This document shows, one piece after another, positions 15,246-45,055 of a DNA stretch of 64,000 nt; within the stretch, counting starts at the first letter, position 1; each line of letters begins with the position of its first letter. Source of the stretch: a virus. Its lineage: Duplodnaviria; Caudoviricetes. Both the position numbers and the translations under genes were made by a program. The stretch is taken from the IMG/VR virus record IMGVR_UViG_3300003320_000853; one strand, given 5' to 3'. The notes under the pieces are model-generated. The model was not told the DNA's origin and did no database searches. It was given only the letters and a program-made list of their open reading frames with translations.

Positions 15246-15850
15246 TGCCTCGCTTTTCGATCCTCGAACAGATCCTCTCCGTCGAGCGCTACCGGCAGCG
15301 GGTATCGGAGAAGCGTGGCGGGTACGCTATGCCAGTTCTCGGGAAGAGGGCGATGTCTCCTGCGGAGGGTCCATTTTTGGTCACCAATGCGAGGGGTCGG
15401 TTCGCTGCCACACGGGTGTCGCGGGATGGGTTCGTGAACTTCGGGTTCTCCCCGAGCCCGCCCGACGAAAGTCAGGACGAGCTACTCCTTCGCCTCTATG
15501 AGGCGGCACGCCATTTCTCTGCATTGGAAGGATGGTCGACCCGGTGTAGTAGGGTGTCGGAGGCGATCGACCGGCTCCGCGGATCCGGACTATCTCCTCG
15601 CTCCCTCATCATCCCCATGGCGACCGTCAAGGAAGTCTGCGGGGTGGAGCTCCAAGCCTCCGAGAGCGGCTTCGTGACCAAGATCGAAGGAGACGTGAGA
15701 GTGTACGTGGCCCCACTTCCGGAAGATGCGGCCCTCGTTCTTCCCGCACCGGAGACCCTCGGTCTGTTCTCCCGTGTCGGAGACTATGTGGGGATTGTGA
15801 TGAAACATGCCAACCGTACGCTGATGGTGGTTGGCCGTGACGTGGCTTGA
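15245..15850 (+). CDS. Hypothetical protein with weak similarity to the C-terminal half of the MCP
   Basis: TGATG coupling; APETLGLF and VGIV segments align by eye with MCP EPENFGRF and VGIG. Confidence 0.6.
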   Translation: MPRFSILEQILSVERYRQRVSEKRGGYAMPVLGKRAMSPAEGPFLVTNARGRFAATRVSRDGFVNFGFSPSPPDESQDELLLRLYEAARHFSALEGWSTRCSRVSEAIDRLRGSGLSPRSLIIPMATVKEVCGVELQASESGFVTKIEGDVRVYVAPLPEDAALVLPAPETLGLFSRVGDYVGIVMKHANRTLMVVGRDVA

Positions 15851-16571
15851 GGATTTCGTCACGGTAGCGGGTAGAGACATCCCCGACCGAGCGCGGGAGA
15901 CCCTCTGGGGGAGGGGGGTCTCCGATGAGCAGATCGAAACGTTCGGGATCGGGTACGTAGGCCGAGACCTCCCGGAGGTCATGCTTCCGGAGACCTTCGT
16001 CCGATGGGCCGGGGACAAGCTCGACGACTGCTTCGTCCTCCCGATCACCAACGCCATCGGCGAGATCCGAGGTCTCCAGTTCCGGCACGTCGAGCGGGGT
16101 CGCTCCGGCTACATGGATTTCCTGTCCGAGCAGGAGGAAGCCGTTGGCTTCGGGCTCGCTCAGGCGATGGAGTCGGTGTGGACGAGGGAGGAGGTCGTCC
16201 TCGTCGAGGGCGCCTTCGATGCTCTTCCGATTCAACGCGTCATGCCAGCGGTGACCGCGACCCTGACGGCCCGTGTCACCGAACCCTTCGTGAGACTTCT
16301 GCGACGTCTTGTACGGCGTGTGTGGATCGGATATGATAACGATCCGACCGGAAACCGGGCGTATCAAAGGTTTCTGAGTCAGTACGGCCGAGACTTCGAC
16401 ATCCGGAGGCTTACCTACCCCAAGGCCCTTTCCGGTGGAAAGCCTGCAAAGGATCCCGGGGACCTCTGGGAGGCGTGGGGGGATACTCGGCTCAAGCAGT
16501 TTCTCCAGTCTTCGATGCGGCTGGACCATTTCATGGAGGACGATCATGCCGAAGGTGTACAGCGAAGCTGA
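15831..16571 (+). CDS. dnaG: DNA primase, DnaG catalytic/Toprim core without N-terminal Zn domain
   Basis: RGVS...FGIGY, FVLPI...G.QFR, LVEGAFD, YDNDPTG, KDPGD. Confidence 0.85.
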   Translation: MAVTWLEDFVTVAGRDIPDRARETLWGRGVSDEQIETFGIGYVGRDLPEVMLPETFVRWAGDKLDDCFVLPITNAIGEIRGLQFRHVERGRSGYMDFLSEQEEAVGFGLAQAMESVWTREEVVLVEGAFDALPIQRVMPAVTATLTARVTEPFVRLLRRLVRRVWIGYDNDPTGNRAYQRFLSQYGRDFDIRRLTYPKALSGGKPAKDPGDLWEAWGDTRLKQFLQSSMRLDHFMEDDHAEGVQRS

Positions 16572-18476: not shown

Positions 18477-20408
18477 ATGTCGAGTGACTGGGTTGTTCTT
18501 GAGCTTGGGCCCAAGGCCGAGGGTGAAGATCCCGATCTGATCCGGCAGTCGATCCGCCATTTGCTGCGGGACGCCGAGGTGTTCATCCCCGCGATGGTCA
18601 CCCAAGTCGGTGGAGATCGGGTTATTCAGTACCTCCTCGAAGGTTACGCCTTCATCCGGCGCGATCATCCCGATGATAGGTACTACCGGCTGGAGGGCTC
18701 GAAGTACGTCCAATCGATCATTACGCATACGGATCGGTCGAGGTTCCGGCCCTTGCGGCGCATCGCTCCGGTGCCCGAGGCGGAGGTCGTGAGGCTCCGC
18801 CGACAGATCGAGGATCAGGGCAACCAGGGGATCGGCGTCGGCGACACGGTGCTCATCCTCTCGGGTCCGTACCGAAACCTCCGGGCTGAAGTCATCGAAG
18901 ACCTCCCTGAGAAGGATCTCGTCCAGGTCTTCGTCAAGATGCGTTCGAAGGAAGCCATCCTCGGCTTCCCGCGGGCTGGTCTTCGACTCGTCTCGAAGGC
19001 CGAGCGGCCGACGGGGTACTTCGCGGCGGCCCGGGCAGAGATCGGCCGGTGGCTCGACATGGCCCTCCCGCTCGCCCGCTGGGCAATGTCAGACTTCGAA
19101 AGCGTCCTCGCGTTGTTTCGGATGGAGCAGCGCGTCGCCGGGTGGCTGACTGCCGGGCAGCGGTTCACCGCTCTGCTCCGGGGTGCAGCGACCCAGCCCA
19201 ACCCGGCGCCCGTCCAGGATCGATGGGCTCATTTTCGCAGACTTTCCGGGTGGATCTCCGAGGTCCAACGAGGCCTCGGGTTCCTCCGGGCGATGGGATC
19301 TCGGCTCGACGACACGCCGCTCCGGATGCAGGGGCAGAAGGTCGAACGACTTTCTGGATGGGTGGCGCGATGGAACCAGTTGTCAGACTTCGTTCGCGCG
19401 TTCTACAATCCTCCCGCCTTCGCTCCCATCGAGACCCGCTACCTGGAGTGGGTGTGGTTTCAGGATGTCCATGATCGCCTGGAGGGCATGTCCCGGCGGC
19501 TGGCAGCCATCGAGCTTGAGGTCAACAGCATTGCCACCATGCAGAACATCATCATCGACGGGAACAATCTCGCGGTGCGGTGCGGCAAGGCCCCCGGCCT
19601 CGATCAGCTCAAGGACAAGCAAGGGCAACCCACGGGGGTCATTGTTGGCTTCCTGCGGAGTTTGGCCTCACTCCGCAAGCGATATCCGGACGCCAGGATC
19701 TTCGTGTGTTGGGATGGCTCATCCCAGCGAAGGAAAGCGATCTTCCCGGGCTACAAGGAAGGGCGCACGCCCTTCGACGGCTATGCTCAGATTCTGTGGC
19801 TTCGAGATGCGCTTCCGGAGTTCGGGGTCGTTCAAATCTGGAACGAGCAGGAAGAGGCCGACGACGTCATCGCCTCTCTCATTCATCTCAGGCTCTCCGA
19901 CCAGGAGAACATCGTCTACTCCACCGACCGGGACCTCTTGCAACTCGTGTCCGGTACGACGAAGCTCCTCTACCCCAGCATCGCAGGCAAGCCCGAGAAG
20001 CTGTACGATGTCGATGCCGTTCGTCTGGAGTACGGCATCGATCCCTCGAAGATGGTGATGTTCCGTGCCTTCCTGGGAGATACGTCGGACAAGATCCCTG
20101 GCATCCCTCGTCTTCGCGAGAAGACTCTCACCGGCCTCATCCGGATGTATGGATCGCTCGACGGCATCTTTGCCTCGAACCTCCCGGAGCTGACGAAGGC
20201 CGAGCAGGGGAAGATCCGAGCGAGCGAGGGGCAAGTTCGCAAGAACGTCGTCCTCATGACTCTCGTGAACGACCTCCCGTTCACGATGACTCTCGACGCC
20301 GCTCCGAATCGCGCCGTCGCCGAAGACCGGCTTCAAAAAGCGGATGTGAAGTCCGACGCTCTCCTCGGGGTGTTCTTCCCGGAGGAGTCTGCAACCGATC
20401 TTAGCTGA
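18477..20408 (+). CDS. NusG-like (NGN+KOW) domain fused via a Trp-rich linker to a 5'-3' exonuclease/flap endonuclease
   Basis: N-term W..., LLEGYAFI, PVPEAEV, VGDTVLILSGPY; C-term from 19539 IIDGNN, WDG, YK.GR, EADD, TDRD, GDTSDKIPG. Confidence 0.85.
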   Translation: MSSDWVVLELGPKAEGEDPDLIRQSIRHLLRDAEVFIPAMVTQVGGDRVIQYLLEGYAFIRRDHPDDRYYRLEGSKYVQSIITHTDRSRFRPLRRIAPVPEAEVVRLRRQIEDQGNQGIGVGDTVLILSGPYRNLRAEVIEDLPEKDLVQVFVKMRSKEAILGFPRAGLRLVSKAERPTGYFAAARAEIGRWLDMALPLARWAMSDFESVLALFRMEQRVAGWLTAGQRFTALLRGAATQPNPAPVQDRWAHFRRLSGWISEVQRGLGFLRAMGSRLDDTPLRMQGQKVERLSGWVARWNQLSDFVRAFYNPPAFAPIETRYLEWVWFQDVHDRLEGMSRRLAAIELEVNSIATMQNIIIDGNNLAVRCGKAPGLDQLKDKQGQPTGVIVGFLRSLASLRKRYPDARIFVCWDGSSQRRKAIFPGYKEGRTPFDGYAQILWLRDALPEFGVVQIWNEQEEADDVIASLIHLRLSDQENIVYSTDRDLLQLVSGTTKLLYPSIAGKPEKLYDVDAVRLEYGIDPSKMVMFRAFLGDTSDKIPGIPRLREKTLTGLIRMYGSLDGIFASNLPELTKAEQGKIRASEGQVRKNVVLMTLVNDLPFTMTLDAAPNRAVAEDRLQKADVKSDALLGVFFPEESATDLS

Positions 20409-20419
20409 GCGGGGGACAT

Positions 20420-21118
20420 ATGTCGTCGACCGGGTACGTCATCTCTGTGGATCCTGCCAGTCTCGCCAACCGATTCTCCGTGGGAAGGGGGAACGACGAA
20501 GAGGATCTTCTGGTCGAACAGCTAGATTCTTTCCGTAGGGATCCCGAGGGGTTGAAGGAACCCCCAGAATCCGATTCCGTCGAGACCTTCCTTTCTTCGG
20601 GAACGACAGAGGAGAGCTTGGAGCCTCTCCTCGCACGCCTCCCCAAGAGGGAGGCCGATCTCATCTACCTCTACTATATCCAGAAAAAGCGCCAGGCGGA
20701 CATCGCCGAAATCTTCGAGGTCACGCAGGCCGCCATCTCCTATCGTCTCGATCGAGGACTCCAGCGCATCAAGTTCCTGCTGTCGATCCCGCAGCTCACG
20801 GAGGAGGAGATCCGGCACGACCTTCCTCTCCTCTATGTCAACGGCAAGCGGGTCTTCAAGCCCATCGACATCGAGATCCTCGTCGGCATGTGGGAGACGA
20901 CGTGTCAGAGCGAGGTTGCGAACCTCTTGGGTCTCACGCAAGGGCGCGTGCGGCACCGATTCTTCAAGGCGGTCAAGGTGCTGGGGGAGGCCTCCAAGGG
21001 AGATCGCCGGTTCGATCGGTACTACAAGGTCTTCGTCGCCATCTCCGGCAACTTCAACATGCTCCGCGAGGTCAAGCTTCCGCAGTGGGCCGACCGTGGG
21101 GGCGACGCGGTCGGCTGA
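20420..21118 (+). CDS. Sigma-70 region-4-like HTH transcription factor (two HTHs)
   Basis: LPKREADLIYLYY...QADIAEIFEVTQAAISYR and second QSEVANLLGLTQGRVR. Confidence 0.8.
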   Translation: MSSTGYVISVDPASLANRFSVGRGNDEEDLLVEQLDSFRRDPEGLKEPPESDSVETFLSSGTTEESLEPLLARLPKREADLIYLYYIQKKRQADIAEIFEVTQAAISYRLDRGLQRIKFLLSIPQLTEEEIRHDLPLLYVNGKRVFKPIDIEILVGMWETTCQSEVANLLGLTQGRVRHRFFKAVKVLGEASKGDRRFDRYYKVFVAISGNFNMLREVKLPQWADRGGDAVG

Positions 21119-21140
21119 TCGGCGCGAGATCCCTCTCGTT

Positions 21141-21149
21141 TCCTTTTAT
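21141..21149 (+). promoter_or_regulatory. Candidate late-promoter element TCCTTTTAT
   Basis: AT-rich motif recurring before structural genes (36538, 36928, 40278, 53086). Confidence 0.5.
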
Positions 21150-27271: not shown

Positions 27272-29290
27272 GTGCCGGCCCCCAGAACACGCAATACAAC
27301 CACAGCCCCTAGCCTCTCGACTCTCCTGCGACAGGCGGGCAAGAACGCCAAGTCGAACGTCGAGATCCAAGAGAGGGCTCAAGCGTCGGACGGGATCACC
27401 GTTCCGACCCCCCGCGCCAATACGCCGAGGATCTTCAACATCCTCGACTACATCGAGCAGGGGTGGGGTCTCGGGATGCGCCTCTATCCCGTGCAGAGGT
27501 TCATCGTCAAGCTCTACTACCACATCCCGCTCGACGACAAGAACAAGTCCATCGAGATCACGGACATGTTCAACTCGGCGGTGATGTACCGATTCACGGA
27601 GACGGAGTACCTGCGATTCCTCTTCGAGAACGGGCGGTGCAACATCGGCGAGCAGGATCATGAGCGACGGGAGTTGCTTCTCGCCATCGGTCGGCGCGCC
27701 GGCAAGAGCACCCTGAGCGGCATCTTCGCGAGCTACGAGGTCTATCGTCTCCTGAACCTCCAGAACCCCCAGGGGTACTACGGGCTCCCGCCCGGTAACC
27801 GGATCCAGATCACCTCGATCGGGACGGACAAGGATCAGGCCGGCATTCTCTTCAACGAGGTGACGAGCCACCTCTCCCGTTGCGAATACTTCTCGCCGTT
27901 CATCGCGAACAACACCCAGAGCTACATTCAATTCCGAACGCCAGCGGACATCGAGAAGTACGGCGAAACGAAGCGTCAGGAGAACGGCAAGTTCGTTTCG
28001 TTCAACGGCAAGGCGACGCTCAGGGTCACATTCAAGTCCTGCATCGCCAAAGGGCTCCGCGGCTTCGGCAACGTCGTGATCATCCTCGACGAGATGGCCC
28101 ACTTCAAGGACAACGGCCAGTCGAGCGCGAAGGACATCTACGACGCCATCACCCCCTCGACCGCTGCCTTCTCGCCCAAGGATCCCAACGACTCGACCCA
28201 CCCGGTTGGACCCGTCGAGAGCCGGATCATCTGCATTTCCTCGCCGCTCAACAAGCAGGGGAAGTTCTACGAGCTGTACCACCTGGCCATGGGTCGGGGG
28301 CCCGGCTCGGAGAACATGCTGGCGATCCAGGCACCTACCTGGGAGGTCAACCCCACGATCGAGCCGGGCTACTACCGGCAGAAGTACCATGCGGATCCCG
28401 CGGTCTTCATGACCGAGCATGGGGCGCAATTCTCCGACCGTGTTCGCGGCTGGATCGAGCGTGAGGTCGACCTTCTGGACTGCATCGACCCGAATCTTCG
28501 TCCGAAGGATCGGGGCATGCCTCGGGCGCCCCATCAGATGGGGATCGACATCGGTCTTGTGGGTGACGGGTCGAGCATTTTCATCACCCATGTCGAGAAC
28601 GATCAGATCGTCGTCGACTACCATGAAACGTGGTACGCAGGCGTTCCTTGGGAGGAGACGAACCCTCATCTGGCCGGAGCGTACTCGACTCCCTACGCTC
28701 GAATCTTGCAGAAGGTCGAGCGTCTCGACTTCGACGAGATCGCGGAATGGATCGCCTCGCTCACCAAGCGCTTCTATATCACGGATGGCATCTTCGATCG
28801 TTGGAACGGCCTTCCCCTGGAGCAGGCGCTCTCGAAGAAGGGTCTTCGGCAATTCAAGGCGGAGTTCTTCCGTCGCGATCTGTCAAGCCAAATCTACCAG
28901 AACGCCAAGCTCATGATGTTCGACAAGCGGCTCCGGCTCTACGACTGGCCGAGACCGAAGGAGAGCTTCAAGCATTCGGACTTCATCGCGGAGTTGCTAT
29001 CTCTCCAGGCGCAGCAAATCTCGCGGAACCTGGTCGTCGTTGCAGCTCCCGAGACTGTGGGTTCGCACGACGACATGAGTGATGCCTTCGTCCGCGCCGT
29101 TTGGCTCTCGTCCCAAAAGATGTCGTCCACGAAACTCGCCCTCGGACCCTCTGAGACCCGAGGGACGGCTGGCGCCGGGATGTCCGTGGCCCGCTACCAG
29201 ATCAACCGGGCACGGGCCCATGGTGGCTTCACGGAGCGCATGTCCCCCAGGCGTGGTGCGGCCCTTGGCCGGCTGAGGCGCGGACGATGA
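27272..29290 (+). CDS. terL: Terminase large subunit
   Basis: LYPVQ, GRRAGKS Walker A, IILDE Walker B, ISSP, GID nuclease motif, HDDMSDA. Confidence 0.93.
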   Translation: MPAPRTRNTTTAPSLSTLLRQAGKNAKSNVEIQERAQASDGITVPTPRANTPRIFNILDYIEQGWGLGMRLYPVQRFIVKLYYHIPLDDKNKSIEITDMFNSAVMYRFTETEYLRFLFENGRCNIGEQDHERRELLLAIGRRAGKSTLSGIFASYEVYRLLNLQNPQGYYGLPPGNRIQITSIGTDKDQAGILFNEVTSHLSRCEYFSPFIANNTQSYIQFRTPADIEKYGETKRQENGKFVSFNGKATLRVTFKSCIAKGLRGFGNVVIILDEMAHFKDNGQSSAKDIYDAITPSTAAFSPKDPNDSTHPVGPVESRIICISSPLNKQGKFYELYHLAMGRGPGSENMLAIQAPTWEVNPTIEPGYYRQKYHADPAVFMTEHGAQFSDRVRGWIEREVDLLDCIDPNLRPKDRGMPRAPHQMGIDIGLVGDGSSIFITHVENDQIVVDYHETWYAGVPWEETNPHLAGAYSTPYARILQKVERLDFDEIAEWIASLTKRFYITDGIFDRWNGLPLEQALSKKGLRQFKAEFFRRDLSSQIYQNAKLMMFDKRLRLYDWPRPKESFKHSDFIAELLSLQAQQISRNLVVVAAPETVGSHDDMSDAFVRAVWLSSQKMSSTKLALGPSETRGTAGAGMSVARYQINRARAHGGFTERMSPRRGAALGRLRRGR

Positions 29291-44699: not shown

Positions 44700-44719
44700 C
44701 GTCGGTGTAGACTTCGGGC

Positions 44720-45055
44720 ATGCCCCTGACCGAAGAAGCTCAAGCGCTGATCGAGCGATCCCTCCAAACCCGAGAGGGTCAGGTTGCACTCATGGTTGCC
44801 ATGGGGGACGCGATCCAACGGTTTGTGGACTGGGGGAACGTAATGCCCGGGACGCGGCGGGATCTAGAAATCACCCGCGCCCGCCTTGAGGCCCGTCGTG
44901 TCGATGTGATGGGCTTCGGGGTGTGGCGCCACGGGCGCACCCTCGGCCAGCTTTTCGAGGCCATGAGACTTTTGAAGGCGCCGCCGATCGGACCCTGCTT
45001 CATCGAGCCCGCGCCGACCGCCTGGGAACATCTCCTGGCAGATGACCCGGTTTGA
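44720..45055 (+). CDS. Small protein resembling the MCP N-terminus, with PTAWEHLLADDPV tail
   Basis: Preceded by CGGTGTAG; by-eye alignment to MCP residues 7-41. Confidence 0.65.
   Translation: MPLTEEAQALIERSLQTREGQVALMVAMGDAIQRFVDWGNVMPGTRRDLEITRARLEARRVDVMGFGVWRHGRTLGQLFEAMRLLKAPPIGPCFIEPAPTAWEHLLADDPV

What the first reader, a model, noticed from the sequence alone, without database searches (positions are those of the whole stretch)
18477..20408. NusG/Spt5-like factor fused to an intact 5'-3' nuclease
Seen: one uninterrupted 643-aa ORF with NGN+KOW at the N-terminus, a linker with about three Trp repeats (RVAGWL, RRLSGWI, ERLSGWV), and a PolA-type 5' nuclease that keeps its acidic catalytic motifs. 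It sits just before the sigma-like gene at the early/late boundary. Known: NusG paralogs (RfaH, TaA) ride RNA polymerase, and FEN-family enzymes remove RNA primers and flaps. Inference: an RNAP-tethered nuclease for R-loop or conflict removal, torpedo-like termination of host transcripts, or coupling of late transcription to replication.
Basis: partly seen in the sequence, partly recalled or inferred. Interest (0 to 1): 0.75.

Follow-up and report, generated by a model that had tools for sequence, protein, structure and literature searches.

The report
NusG-like factor fused to flap nuclease
A ~377-kb uncultured phage joins an RNA-polymerase-riding factor (NusG-like) to what is probably its only DNA-replication flap nuclease in one protein, a fusion kept by well over a hundred related huge phages and not found in the papers searched, which points to a physical link between phage transcription and replication.

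Summary
Window 18477-20408 (+) is one open 643-aa gene with four parts:
- NGN and KOW domains (residues 1-175);
- a helical spacer of about 180 residues with four (not three) RLxxW repeats;
- a complete Pol I-type 5' nuclease with every catalytic carboxylate;
- a hydrophobic LLGVFF motif near the C-terminus.

The gene lies between a DnaX-like clamp loader and a sigma-region-4 protein, with gaps of 6 and 11 nt.

The fusion is phage-specific and old.
- All but two of the 120 best database relatives are full length.
- 49 of 69 classified loci are fused.
- It is the only FEN in five relatives' genomes. Their PolA lacks a 5' nuclease, and no RNA polymerase gene was found.

Sister clades keep the same gene order with NusG-like and FEN as separate genes, or with no FEN. 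Inside the fused clade the gene was split again at least three times, always near the spacer/FEN border. One relative also fuses the sigma-like protein. A methionine is strongly enriched at that border, so a FEN-only product is plausible.

My best reading is a tether that couples host-RNAP elongation to the phage's replication machinery. This is inferred and untested.

The scan found the same fusion before in two other genomes. I found no paper on it.

The parts
18477..20408 (+). Whole NusG-like/FEN fusion gene (643 aa plus stop). A GAGGG Shine-Dalgarno-like motif lies 9 nt before the ATG.
   Evidence: 100% self-hit on a 376,986-bp contig
18477..18821 (+). NGN domain (residues 1-115), with the invariant strand motif G56-Y57-A58-F59 that aligns to NusG 'PGYVLV'
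18822..19001 (+). KOW domain (residues 116-175). It is the best-conserved part of the protein (majority-residue fraction 0.74).
19002..19538 (+). Helical spacer (residues 176-354). Five long helices carry four RLxxW repeats (nt 19038-19361). Sequence is poorly conserved (24% identity), but length is constrained: 180-199 aa in 93 of 112 relatives.
19539..19541 (+). Internal Met355, six residues before the catalytic Asp. This is the position of the start codon in stand-alone and split FEN genes. No Shine-Dalgarno motif precedes it in this window.
19539..20360 (+). Pol I-type 5' nuclease (FEN). It has the resolvase-like N domain and the H3TH domain. All catalytic carboxylates and the Y426/K427/R430 arch motif are present.
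20361..20378 (+). Hydrophobic motif LLGVFF (residues 629-634) near the C-terminus; family consensus [IL]LxAFF. It is a candidate sliding-clamp-binding peptide (inference only).
   Evidence: clamp-binding consensus QL[SD]LF from PMC12867686
16863..18470 (+). DnaX-like clamp loader. It is the upstream neighbour in all gene-order states and ends 6 nt before the fusion gene.
20420..21118 (+). Sigma-like partner (232 aa). It has one clear sigma region-4 domain (about residues 60-122), a second HTH (148-194) and no sigma region 2. It is the downstream neighbour in every locus where it was detected, and it is fused to the FEN in L001.
21124..21149 (+). Terminator-like hairpin plus T-rich tail, 6 nt after the sigma-like stop codon; a possible operon end. 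The number of such hits in this region is at chance level.
15831..16571 (+). Toprim (primase-like) gene, a conserved upstream member of the same gene block

Best explanation
The gene makes a two-headed protein of a huge phage that has no RNA polymerase gene I could detect.

Head 1 (NGN+KOW) is a divergent, phage-specific member of the NusG/Spt5 family. By homology it should dock on the clamp of the host RNA polymerase during elongation. Head 2 is probably the phage's only flap endonuclease, the enzyme that removes RNA primers and flaps during lagging-strand synthesis alongside the phage PolA and NAD ligase. A helical spacer of about 180 residues and constrained length joins them. A hydrophobic motif near the C-terminus looks like a sliding-clamp-binding peptide.

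Most likely mechanism (inferred): the FEN end works at nicks, flaps and clamps on replicating phage DNA. This concentrates the NusG-like end on that DNA. The NusG-like end then loads onto host RNAP there, in place of host NusG, and keeps transcription of long phage operons processive. Transcription of the phage genome would thereby be tied to its replication. This is the same logic as clamp-activated late transcription in T4 and Mu, built from different parts. The adjacent sigma-region-4 protein would belong to the same RNAP-reprogramming unit. An internal start at the spacer/FEN border probably also yields free FEN for bulk Okazaki-fragment processing.

Shown: domain content, intact catalytic residues, conservation and age of the fusion, gene order, sole-FEN status in relatives, repeated fission, and Met enrichment at the border.

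Inferred: RNAP binding, clamp binding, the direction of recruitment, and dual products.
For: - Both heads are intact and at least equally conserved. Identity to the window protein is NGN 57%, KOW 61%, FEN 52% and spacer 24%.
- The fusion persists down to about 35% identity. All but two of the 120 best relatives are full length. 49 of 69 classified loci are fused.
- An exhaustive search of 1.84 billion representatives finds only 266 relatives of the NGN-KOW part. The strongest 60 are mostly 540-690 aa.
- Gene order is constant: Toprim, clamp loader, NusG-like, [FEN], sigma-r4. It holds in clades where the FEN is absent (A), separate (B) or fused (C). Each clade has 97-100% support.
- L001 additionally fuses the sigma-like protein in frame.
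- The fused FEN is the only PF02739 hit in 5 of 5 relatives' genomes, three of them at least 90% complete.
- PolA is about 940-1070 aa and sits elsewhere, without a 5' nuclease.
- No RNAP beta or beta' was found.
- The FEN tail motif [ILVM]xxFF occurs in 73 of 119 family members. Stand-alone FENs of clade B end in YSLFD, which matches the [SD]LF of the beta-clamp consensus QL[SD]LF.
- Precedent exists for clamp-coupled phage late transcription: T4 (PMC2988020) and Mu (PMC12867686).
- 61% of 152 fused proteins have a Met within 11 residues before the catalytic Asp, against a mean of 15% in control windows. Met frequency is 31% at position -7, which is within the range of the start-codon position (6-8 residues before the Asp) in stand-alone FENs.
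Against: - No binding or activity was tested.
- No sliding-clamp gene was found in the relatives with the Pfam DnaN models, or in the window with PHROGs. The clamp partner is therefore hypothetical and could be the host beta clamp.
- The tail motif is short and degenerate, and it is missing from about a third of family members.
- At least three independent fissions, plus clades A and B, show that covalent coupling is dispensable.
- The NGN-KOW scores are far below every curated NusG-family cut-off, so RNAP binding rests on fold and distant homology.
- No Shine-Dalgarno enrichment precedes the internal Met.
- The direction of recruitment (FEN brings NusG, or NusG brings FEN) cannot be told from sequence.
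Confidence: 0.4

Rival explanations
1. RNAP-tethered nuclease. The NusG-like head rides host RNAP and carries the FEN as cargo. The FEN then trims RNA-DNA hybrids (R-loops), or mRNA used as a primer after replisome-RNAP collisions, right where they form.
For: This reading draws on the same structural facts: an intact NGN-KOW and FEN, a long spacer of constrained length, and a conserved fusion. Pol I-type 5' nucleases remove the RNA of RNA-DNA hybrids (family knowledge). The phage lacks its own RNAP, so host RNAP and the phage replisome share the template. A free-FEN isoform from the internal Met would leave the full-length form free for a specialised job.
Against: The FEN is the only one in relatives' genomes, so its primary task is most simply replication. 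Clade A keeps the NusG-like/sigma pair without any FEN. Split forms are viable. Nothing in the sequence shows R-loop specificity.
Confidence: 0.25
2. No mechanistic coupling. Two neighbouring genes of one operon lost the stop codon between them. The NusG-like part acts as an ordinary phage antiterminator and the FEN as an ordinary primer-removal nuclease. The fusion only fixes co-expression.
For: The two genes are adjacent but separate in clade B, and the FEN is absent in clade A. At least three fissions occurred in the fused clade. A read-through fusion to the next gene also occurs, in L001, so stop-codon loss happens in this operon. The Met retained at the junction fits two functional units.
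Against: The fused clade gained a helical domain of about 180 residues that clades A and B lack. Its length is held at 180-199 aa in 93 of 112 members despite 24% identity. The fusion has lasted to about 35% identity in most lineages. In four of the five split lineages the spacer stays attached to the NusG part and the genes overlap, which suggests a retained complex.
Confidence: 0.2
3. Torpedo-like terminator. The RNAP-bound protein degrades nascent or host RNA 5'-to-3' and dislodges RNAP.
For: Only the architecture: a 5'-3' nuclease tethered to an RNAP-binding module.
Against: Known torpedo nucleases (Xrn2/Rat1, RNase J) belong to other folds. Pol I/FEN-type enzymes need a DNA duplex junction and are not single-stranded-RNA exonucleases (family knowledge). 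The closest structures are DNA flap endonucleases.
Confidence: 0.03

Closest known systems
NusG and its specialised paralogues (RfaH, LoaP, UpxY, ActX)
   Same: Two-domain NGN+KOW architecture. The hallmark NGN strand motif is present (GYAF versus PGYV). The fold matches NusG chains in RNAP complexes. Like the paralogues, it is encoded next to the genes it presumably serves.
   Different: Scores lie far below all curated cut-offs: nusG 26 versus 136 bits, LoaP 21 versus 125, UpxY 13.5 versus 100. It belongs to a small phage-only clade of 266 representatives in 1.84 billion proteins. It carries a 180-aa helical domain and a nuclease after the KOW domain. I found no description of any NusG-family protein fused to a nuclease.
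Pol I 5' nuclease domain and stand-alone bacterial or phage FENs (M. smegmatis FenA, E. coli ExoIX, T5 D15, T4 RNase H)
   Same: Same fold (TM 0.79 to FenA), the same two Pfam domains, and all metal-binding carboxylates and the arch Y/K/R motif. As in T5 and T4, the nuclease is separate from the polymerase.
   Different: It is attached to a transcription-factor module instead of a polymerase. It ends in an [IL]LxAFF motif near the C-terminus.
T4 late transcription (gp55 + gp33 + sliding clamp gp45, loaded by gp44/62)
   Same: The phage uses host RNAP. Small RNAP-binding factors are encoded beside replication genes. C-terminal hydrophobic peptides tether RNAP factors to a replication protein. 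Replication is coupled to late transcription (PMC2988020; PMC7892883).
   Different: There is no homology to gp33, gp55 or gp45. The RNAP-binding part here is an elongation-factor fold (NGN), not a sigma mimic. The replication partner would be a FEN. Clamp binding is only a motif-level guess.
Phage Mu MuC/Mor with the host beta clamp
   Same: A phage transcription factor carries clamp-binding motifs (consensus QL[SD]LF) and needs the clamp for late transcription (PMC12867686). Clade-B FENs here end in YSLFD.
   Different: MuC is a DNA-binding activator with no nuclease and no NGN domain. The motif in the window protein (LLGVFF) is further from the consensus.

Membership tests
NusG/Spt5 superfamily | NGN fold followed by a KOW domain | tested here: met
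   The AlphaFold model has NGN at 1-115 and KOW at 120-173 with pLDDT about 88-95. Foldseek hits NusG chains 9a56_B at 8e-9 and 6gov_G at 3e-8. phmmer to NusG 8syi_G gives 5e-5 over residues 51-155.
NusG/Spt5 superfamily | Pfam NusG (PF02357) and KOW (PF00467) above their gathering scores | tested here: not met
   KOW scores 21.0 bits against a cut-off of 22.3. NusG scores 12.3 bits against 22.2. This is a distant member by sequence.
NusG/Spt5 superfamily | Binds the beta' clamp helices and beta gate loop of a multisubunit RNAP | not testable with these tools
   No complex prediction or assay was available. Only the conserved NGN strand motif G56-Y57-A58-F59 was seen.
Housekeeping NusG or the RfaH, LoaP and UpxY subfamilies | Score above the NCBIfam curated cut-off | tested here: not met
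   nusG 26.3 versus 135.7 bits; LoaP 21.1 versus 125; UpxY 13.5 versus 100. RfaH was not hit for the window protein.
Pol I-type 5'-3' exonuclease / FEN (PF02739 + PF01367) | Both Pfam domains above their gathering scores | tested here: met
   98.5 bits against 34.3, and 52.8 bits against 40.
Pol I-type 5'-3' exonuclease / FEN (PF02739 + PF01367) | Complete set of metal-binding carboxylates and the arch Y/K/R motif | tested here: met
   D361, D413, E460, D462, D463, D484, D486, D535, D538, Y426, K427 and R430 are invariant in A1 and align with the Taq and M. smegmatis Pol I motifs.
Pol I-type 5'-3' exonuclease / FEN (PF02739 + PF01367) | Flap or 5' exonuclease activity | not testable with these tools
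   This needs an enzyme assay.
Clamp-coupled phage late transcription (T4 and Mu type) | The RNAP-bound factor carries a peptide that binds the sliding clamp | tested here: inconclusive
   The window protein has LLGVFF at 629-634. [ILVM]xxFF occurs in 73 of 119 relatives. Clade-B FENs end in YSLFD. This is motif resemblance only.
Clamp-coupled phage late transcription (T4 and Mu type) | A clamp and a clamp loader are available to the phage | tested here: inconclusive
   A DnaX-like clamp loader is adjacent (dnaX_nterm 214 bits). No DnaN-type clamp was found by Pfam in five relatives or by PHROGs in the window. The host clamp remains possible.
Clamp-coupled phage late transcription (T4 and Mu type) | Homology to gp33/gp55 or to Mor/MuC | not tested
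   No dedicated search was made. The Pfam, PHROG and NCBIfam hits of the neighbour are sigma-70 region 4 only.

The most novel reading that the evidence does not exclude
Huge phages of this clade have independently invented a third way, after T4 and Mu, to make late or long-operon transcription depend on replication. A NusG-family elongation factor would be delivered to host RNA polymerase by the replisome's flap endonuclease and sliding clamp, working with a double-HTH sigma-4 protein. The full-length and FEN-only isoforms would divide the labour.
Probability: 0.3. Interest if true: 0.85.

Novelty: new variant of a known kind. Interest (0 to 1): 0.66.

Why it matters
NusG/Spt5 is the only transcription factor conserved in all domains of life. 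Its known variants recruit ribosomes, Rho or RNA-processing factors, never a DNA-replication nuclease.

A conserved NusG-FEN protein in a large clade of huge phages would be a natural, ready-made handle on two questions:
- how replication and transcription are coordinated on one template;
- how a virus without its own RNA polymerase takes over elongation by the host enzyme.

The natural series is a built-in set of genetic controls for testing what the tether does. It runs from no FEN, to separate genes, to fused, to re-split, to triple-fused with the sigma-like protein.

Tried and rejected
- Cultured phages: tblastn matched only the FEN part (no hit covered at least 80% of the query), and megablast of 9 kb around the gene found nothing. 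No isolated phage is available as a model.
- Phage RNA polymerase: Pfam searches for RNAP beta and beta' in five relatives found nothing. The T7-type RNAP search was also negative, but its control was silent, so it is uninformative.
- Replicase and clamp: there were no hits for Pol III alpha, PolB, or the DnaN N and C domains. PHROGs on the unassigned window ORFs gave no clamp. The clamp partner stays unidentified.
- Spacer identity: the ESM Atlas structural neighbours are generic helical bundles such as PhoU-like proteins, and are not informative.
- Shine-Dalgarno motif before the internal start: 14 of 41 genes have an SD-like motif before a junction start codon. The background is 15% per codon. 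With about two candidate codons per gene, this is not significant.
- Internal promoter: one sigma-70-like match lies at 19380-19409, but one match equals the chance expectation.
- Literature: six targeted full-text searches on NusG with flap endonuclease, exonuclease, jumbo or huge phage, or phage-encoded paralogues, plus a broader KOW/NGN/exonuclease search, found no description of the fusion. JGI's automatic names do show both domains.
- Torpedo reading: rejected on family knowledge and on the closest structures.
- GTDB genomes: the full-length fusion appears only on a few MAG contigs (L087, L088, L090, L091), which are probably mis-binned phage. Every other hit was a Pol I FEN domain. This gave no host clue.
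Full report
**What is there.** Window 18477-20408 (+) is one uninterrupted 643-aa ORF. A GAGGG motif lies 9 nt before its ATG, and the upstream gene ends only 6 nt earlier.

Pfam finds both halves of a Pol I-type 5' nuclease well above threshold. Residues 358-520 score 98.5 bits and residues 522-611 score 52.8 bits. A KOW motif falls just under threshold.

Other methods place a NusG-like NGN+KOW at residues 1-175:
- PDB sequence search, NusG 8syi_G: 5e-5
- NCBIfam nusG: 5.6e-6, with weaker LoaP and UpxY hits
- PHROG 'transcription antiterminator': 3e-5

An AlphaFold model built on 39 homologues (pLDDT 84.5) gives NGN at 1-115, KOW at 120-173, five long helices at 181-350 and a FEN at 357-633. 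Foldseek matches the FEN to M. smegmatis FenA (E 2e-17, TM 0.79). It matches the N-terminus to NusG chains from RNAP complexes (8e-9 and 3e-8).

All FEN carboxylates are invariant in the family, as is the arch Y426/K427/R430 motif. The carboxylates are D361, D413, E460, D462, D463, D484, D486, D535 and D538. They align with the Taq and M. smegmatis Pol I motifs.

The linker holds four RLxxW repeats, not three, at residues 188-192, 219-223, 255-259 and 291-295.

**Where it sits.** The window is part of a 376,986-bp contig. Earlier notes of this scan describe it as an uncultured huge phage.

Upstream lies a replication and recombination block:
- NAD ligase
- RecD2
- a RuvC-like resolvase
- RecA
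- SbcCD-like proteins
- a PD-(D/E)XK nuclease
- a Toprim protein
- a DnaX-like clamp loader

Eleven nt downstream is a 232-aa protein with a sigma region-4 domain. Its model (pLDDT 85) shows a sigma-4 fold at about residues 60-122, a second HTH at 148-194 and no region 2. A terminator-like hairpin follows that gene, but such hits occur at chance frequency here. TerL is at 27272-29290.

**Is the fusion kept?** Yes, in most relatives.
- All but two of the best 120 hits among 5.8 billion protein clusters are full length (595-690 aa, 39-58% identity). They lie on contigs of up to 620 kb. JGI's automatic name is '5'-3' exonuclease/transcription antitermination factor NusG'.
- An exhaustive search of 1.84 billion representatives with residues 1-178 finds only 266 relatives, 60 of them at E of 1e-30 or better. 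The strongest hits are mostly 540-690 aa. The weaker ones are stand-alone proteins of 165-215 aa. This is a small, phage-specific NusG-like clade.
- No cultured phage has the fusion.
- In 185,579 species genomes the full-length form appears only on a few MAG contigs. Everything else is the FEN domain of Pol I.

**An evolutionary series.** I scanned 83 fetched loci with the window's own proteins. The gene order is constant: Toprim, clamp loader, NusG-like, [FEN], sigma-r4 protein, then a conserved 300-aa protein. A metallopeptidase sits between Toprim and the clamp loader in the loci with gene calls. Four or five states occur within this order:

| State | Arrangement | Loci |
|---|---|---|
| A | NusG-like alone (183-225 aa), no FEN | 8 |
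| B | NusG-like (173-193 aa) and FEN (307-319 aa) as separate neighbours, no helical spacer | 4-6 |
| C | fused | 49 |
| split | two genes cut near the spacer/FEN border | L003=L004=L053, L052, L006; later L084, L085, L086 |
| D | triple fusion that reads on into the sigma-like protein | L001 |

A clamp-loader tree gives A, B and C(+split) as clades with 100, 99 and 97% support. A concatenated clamp-loader, NGN-KOW and sigma tree gives matching clades. The split forms fall in three separate places inside the fused clade:
- (L084, L003) with fused L012: support 0.999
- L006 with fused L013/L014: support 1.0
- (L085, L052): support 1.0

These are secondary fissions. In L003 the stop and start codons overlap as ATGA, exactly at the domain border. 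In four of the five split lineages the spacer stays with the NusG part; in L006 it goes with the FEN.

The fusion is favoured but not obligatory.

**What the FEN is for.** In five relatives' genomes, three of them at least 90% complete, the fused gene is the only PF02739 hit. Their family-A polymerase (about 940-1070 aa) lies elsewhere and has no 5' nuclease. No RNAP beta or beta' was found. A 92%-complete clade-A genome has no FEN at all.

The FEN is therefore most simply the phage's primer and flap nuclease, and transcription must use host RNAP. The whole genome of this window's phage was not available. These statements rest on the relatives.

**Selection on the parts.** NGN and KOW are at least as conserved as the FEN (57%, 61% and 52% identity to the window protein). 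The spacer is only 24% identical. Its length, however, is 180-199 aa in 93 of 112 relatives. It behaves like a fold-constrained or length-constrained domain. Its structural neighbours are uninformative helical bundles.

**Tail motif.** The protein carries ...ALLGVFFPEESATDLS at its C-terminus. [ILVM]xxFF lies within the last 40 residues in 73 of 119 family members. Stand-alone clade-B FENs end in YSLFD. This matches the [SD]LF core of the bacterial clamp-binding consensus QL[SD]LF, quoted in PMC12867686. No other ORF of at least 150 aa in the window has such an ending. Together with the adjacent clamp loader, this suggests clamp binding. I could not find a clamp gene, so this remains an inference.

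**Internal start.** Met355 (19539) lies six residues before the catalytic Asp. Stand-alone and split FENs begin 6-9 residues before that Asp.

Across 152 fused proteins, 61% have a Met in the 11 residues before the Asp. The mean for 51 control windows is 15%. Met frequency at position -7 is 31%, against 1.7% overall. At DNA level, 39 of 41 unique fused genes have an ATG, GTG or TTG there. Shine-Dalgarno motifs are not enriched, and the window has none.

A FEN-only isoform is therefore plausible family-wide but unproven. A relic of the ancestral start codon is the alternative.

**Mechanism.** My best reading (confidence 0.4) is a tether between replication and transcription elongation.
1. The FEN end works at nicks, flaps and clamps on replicating phage DNA.
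2. This concentrates the NusG-like end there.
3. The NusG-like end loads on host RNAP instead of host NusG and keeps phage transcription processive.

The logic parallels clamp-activated late transcription in T4 (PMC2988020, PMC7892883) and Mu (PMC12867686), with unrelated parts.

The mirror image, in which RNAP carries the FEN to RNA-DNA hybrids, cannot be excluded (0.25). Simple co-expression without coupling is also possible (0.2). That rival is favoured by the fissions and by clades A and B. It is disfavoured by the gain and length conservation of the spacer and by the persistence of the fusion. A torpedo role is unlikely for this nuclease family (0.03).

**Novelty.** Seven full-text searches found no paper on a NusG-nuclease fusion. 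Only automatic annotations show both domains.

This scan met the same fusion earlier in two other genomes. One earlier follow-up reached a similar reading. My conclusions rest on the tests run here. I class the protein as a new variant of a known kind: a NusG-family paralogue with an undescribed cargo. Interest is moderately high.

Noticed in passing
L013:3275-6001, L014:3297-6001, L026:3221-5959: In these relatives the clamp-loader reading frame is about 700-913 aa. The homologous parts are split (about residues 4-55 and 484-907) around an insertion of about 430 aa, which looks intein-like. In L014 the frame is also interrupted.
   Followed up: no
L085:4120-4165 and L052:3660-3705: In one split lineage, the N-part and FEN frames overlap by about 25 nt. 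The FEN is in the +1 frame, and an A6-A7 run sits just before the FEN ATG. This could be a slippage site that still yields some fused product, or a homopolymer assembly error.
   Followed up: partly
window 20420-21118 and its homologues (alignment A2): The sigma-r4 protein has two very conserved end peptides of unknown role: an N-terminal GYVIPVDPxELANRF and a C-terminal FNILREVKLPQWxxRGGD. The C-terminal one is also recognisable in clades A and B (LNLLREVQR, LHEVxLPHF).
   Followed up: partly
L075:5962-6591, L077:5953-6582, L080:5959-6591 (clade A): Stand-alone NusG-like proteins of the FEN-less clade carry an acidic, hydrophobic C-terminal tail after the KOW domain (for example SLEELLEGGSWL, LSLDELMESGEWT). 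It might be a docking peptide that replaces the FEN tail.
   Followed up: no
window 44711-45052 (+): This small ORF ends in PTAWEHLLADDPV. That is the shared C-terminal tag which earlier notes of this scan describe on many proteins of this phage.
   Followed up: no
window 19380-19409 (+): A sigma-70-like promoter match (TTGTCA, 18 nt, TACAAT; 10 of 12 positions) lies inside the spacer-coding region, 130 nt before Met355. One match equals the chance expectation for this region.
   Followed up: partly
L086:1400-4711: This locus looks decayed. The clamp-loader homology is broken into three short frames, and the FEN gene after the 385-aa NusG-spacer gene is only 188 aa long.
   Followed up: no
G001-G005 (relatives' whole records): These 350-530 kb phages have a family-A DNA polymerase of about 940-1070 aa together with a DnaX-like clamp loader. 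They have no detectable Pol III alpha, PolB or DnaN. This replisome make-up is unusual.
   Followed up: partly
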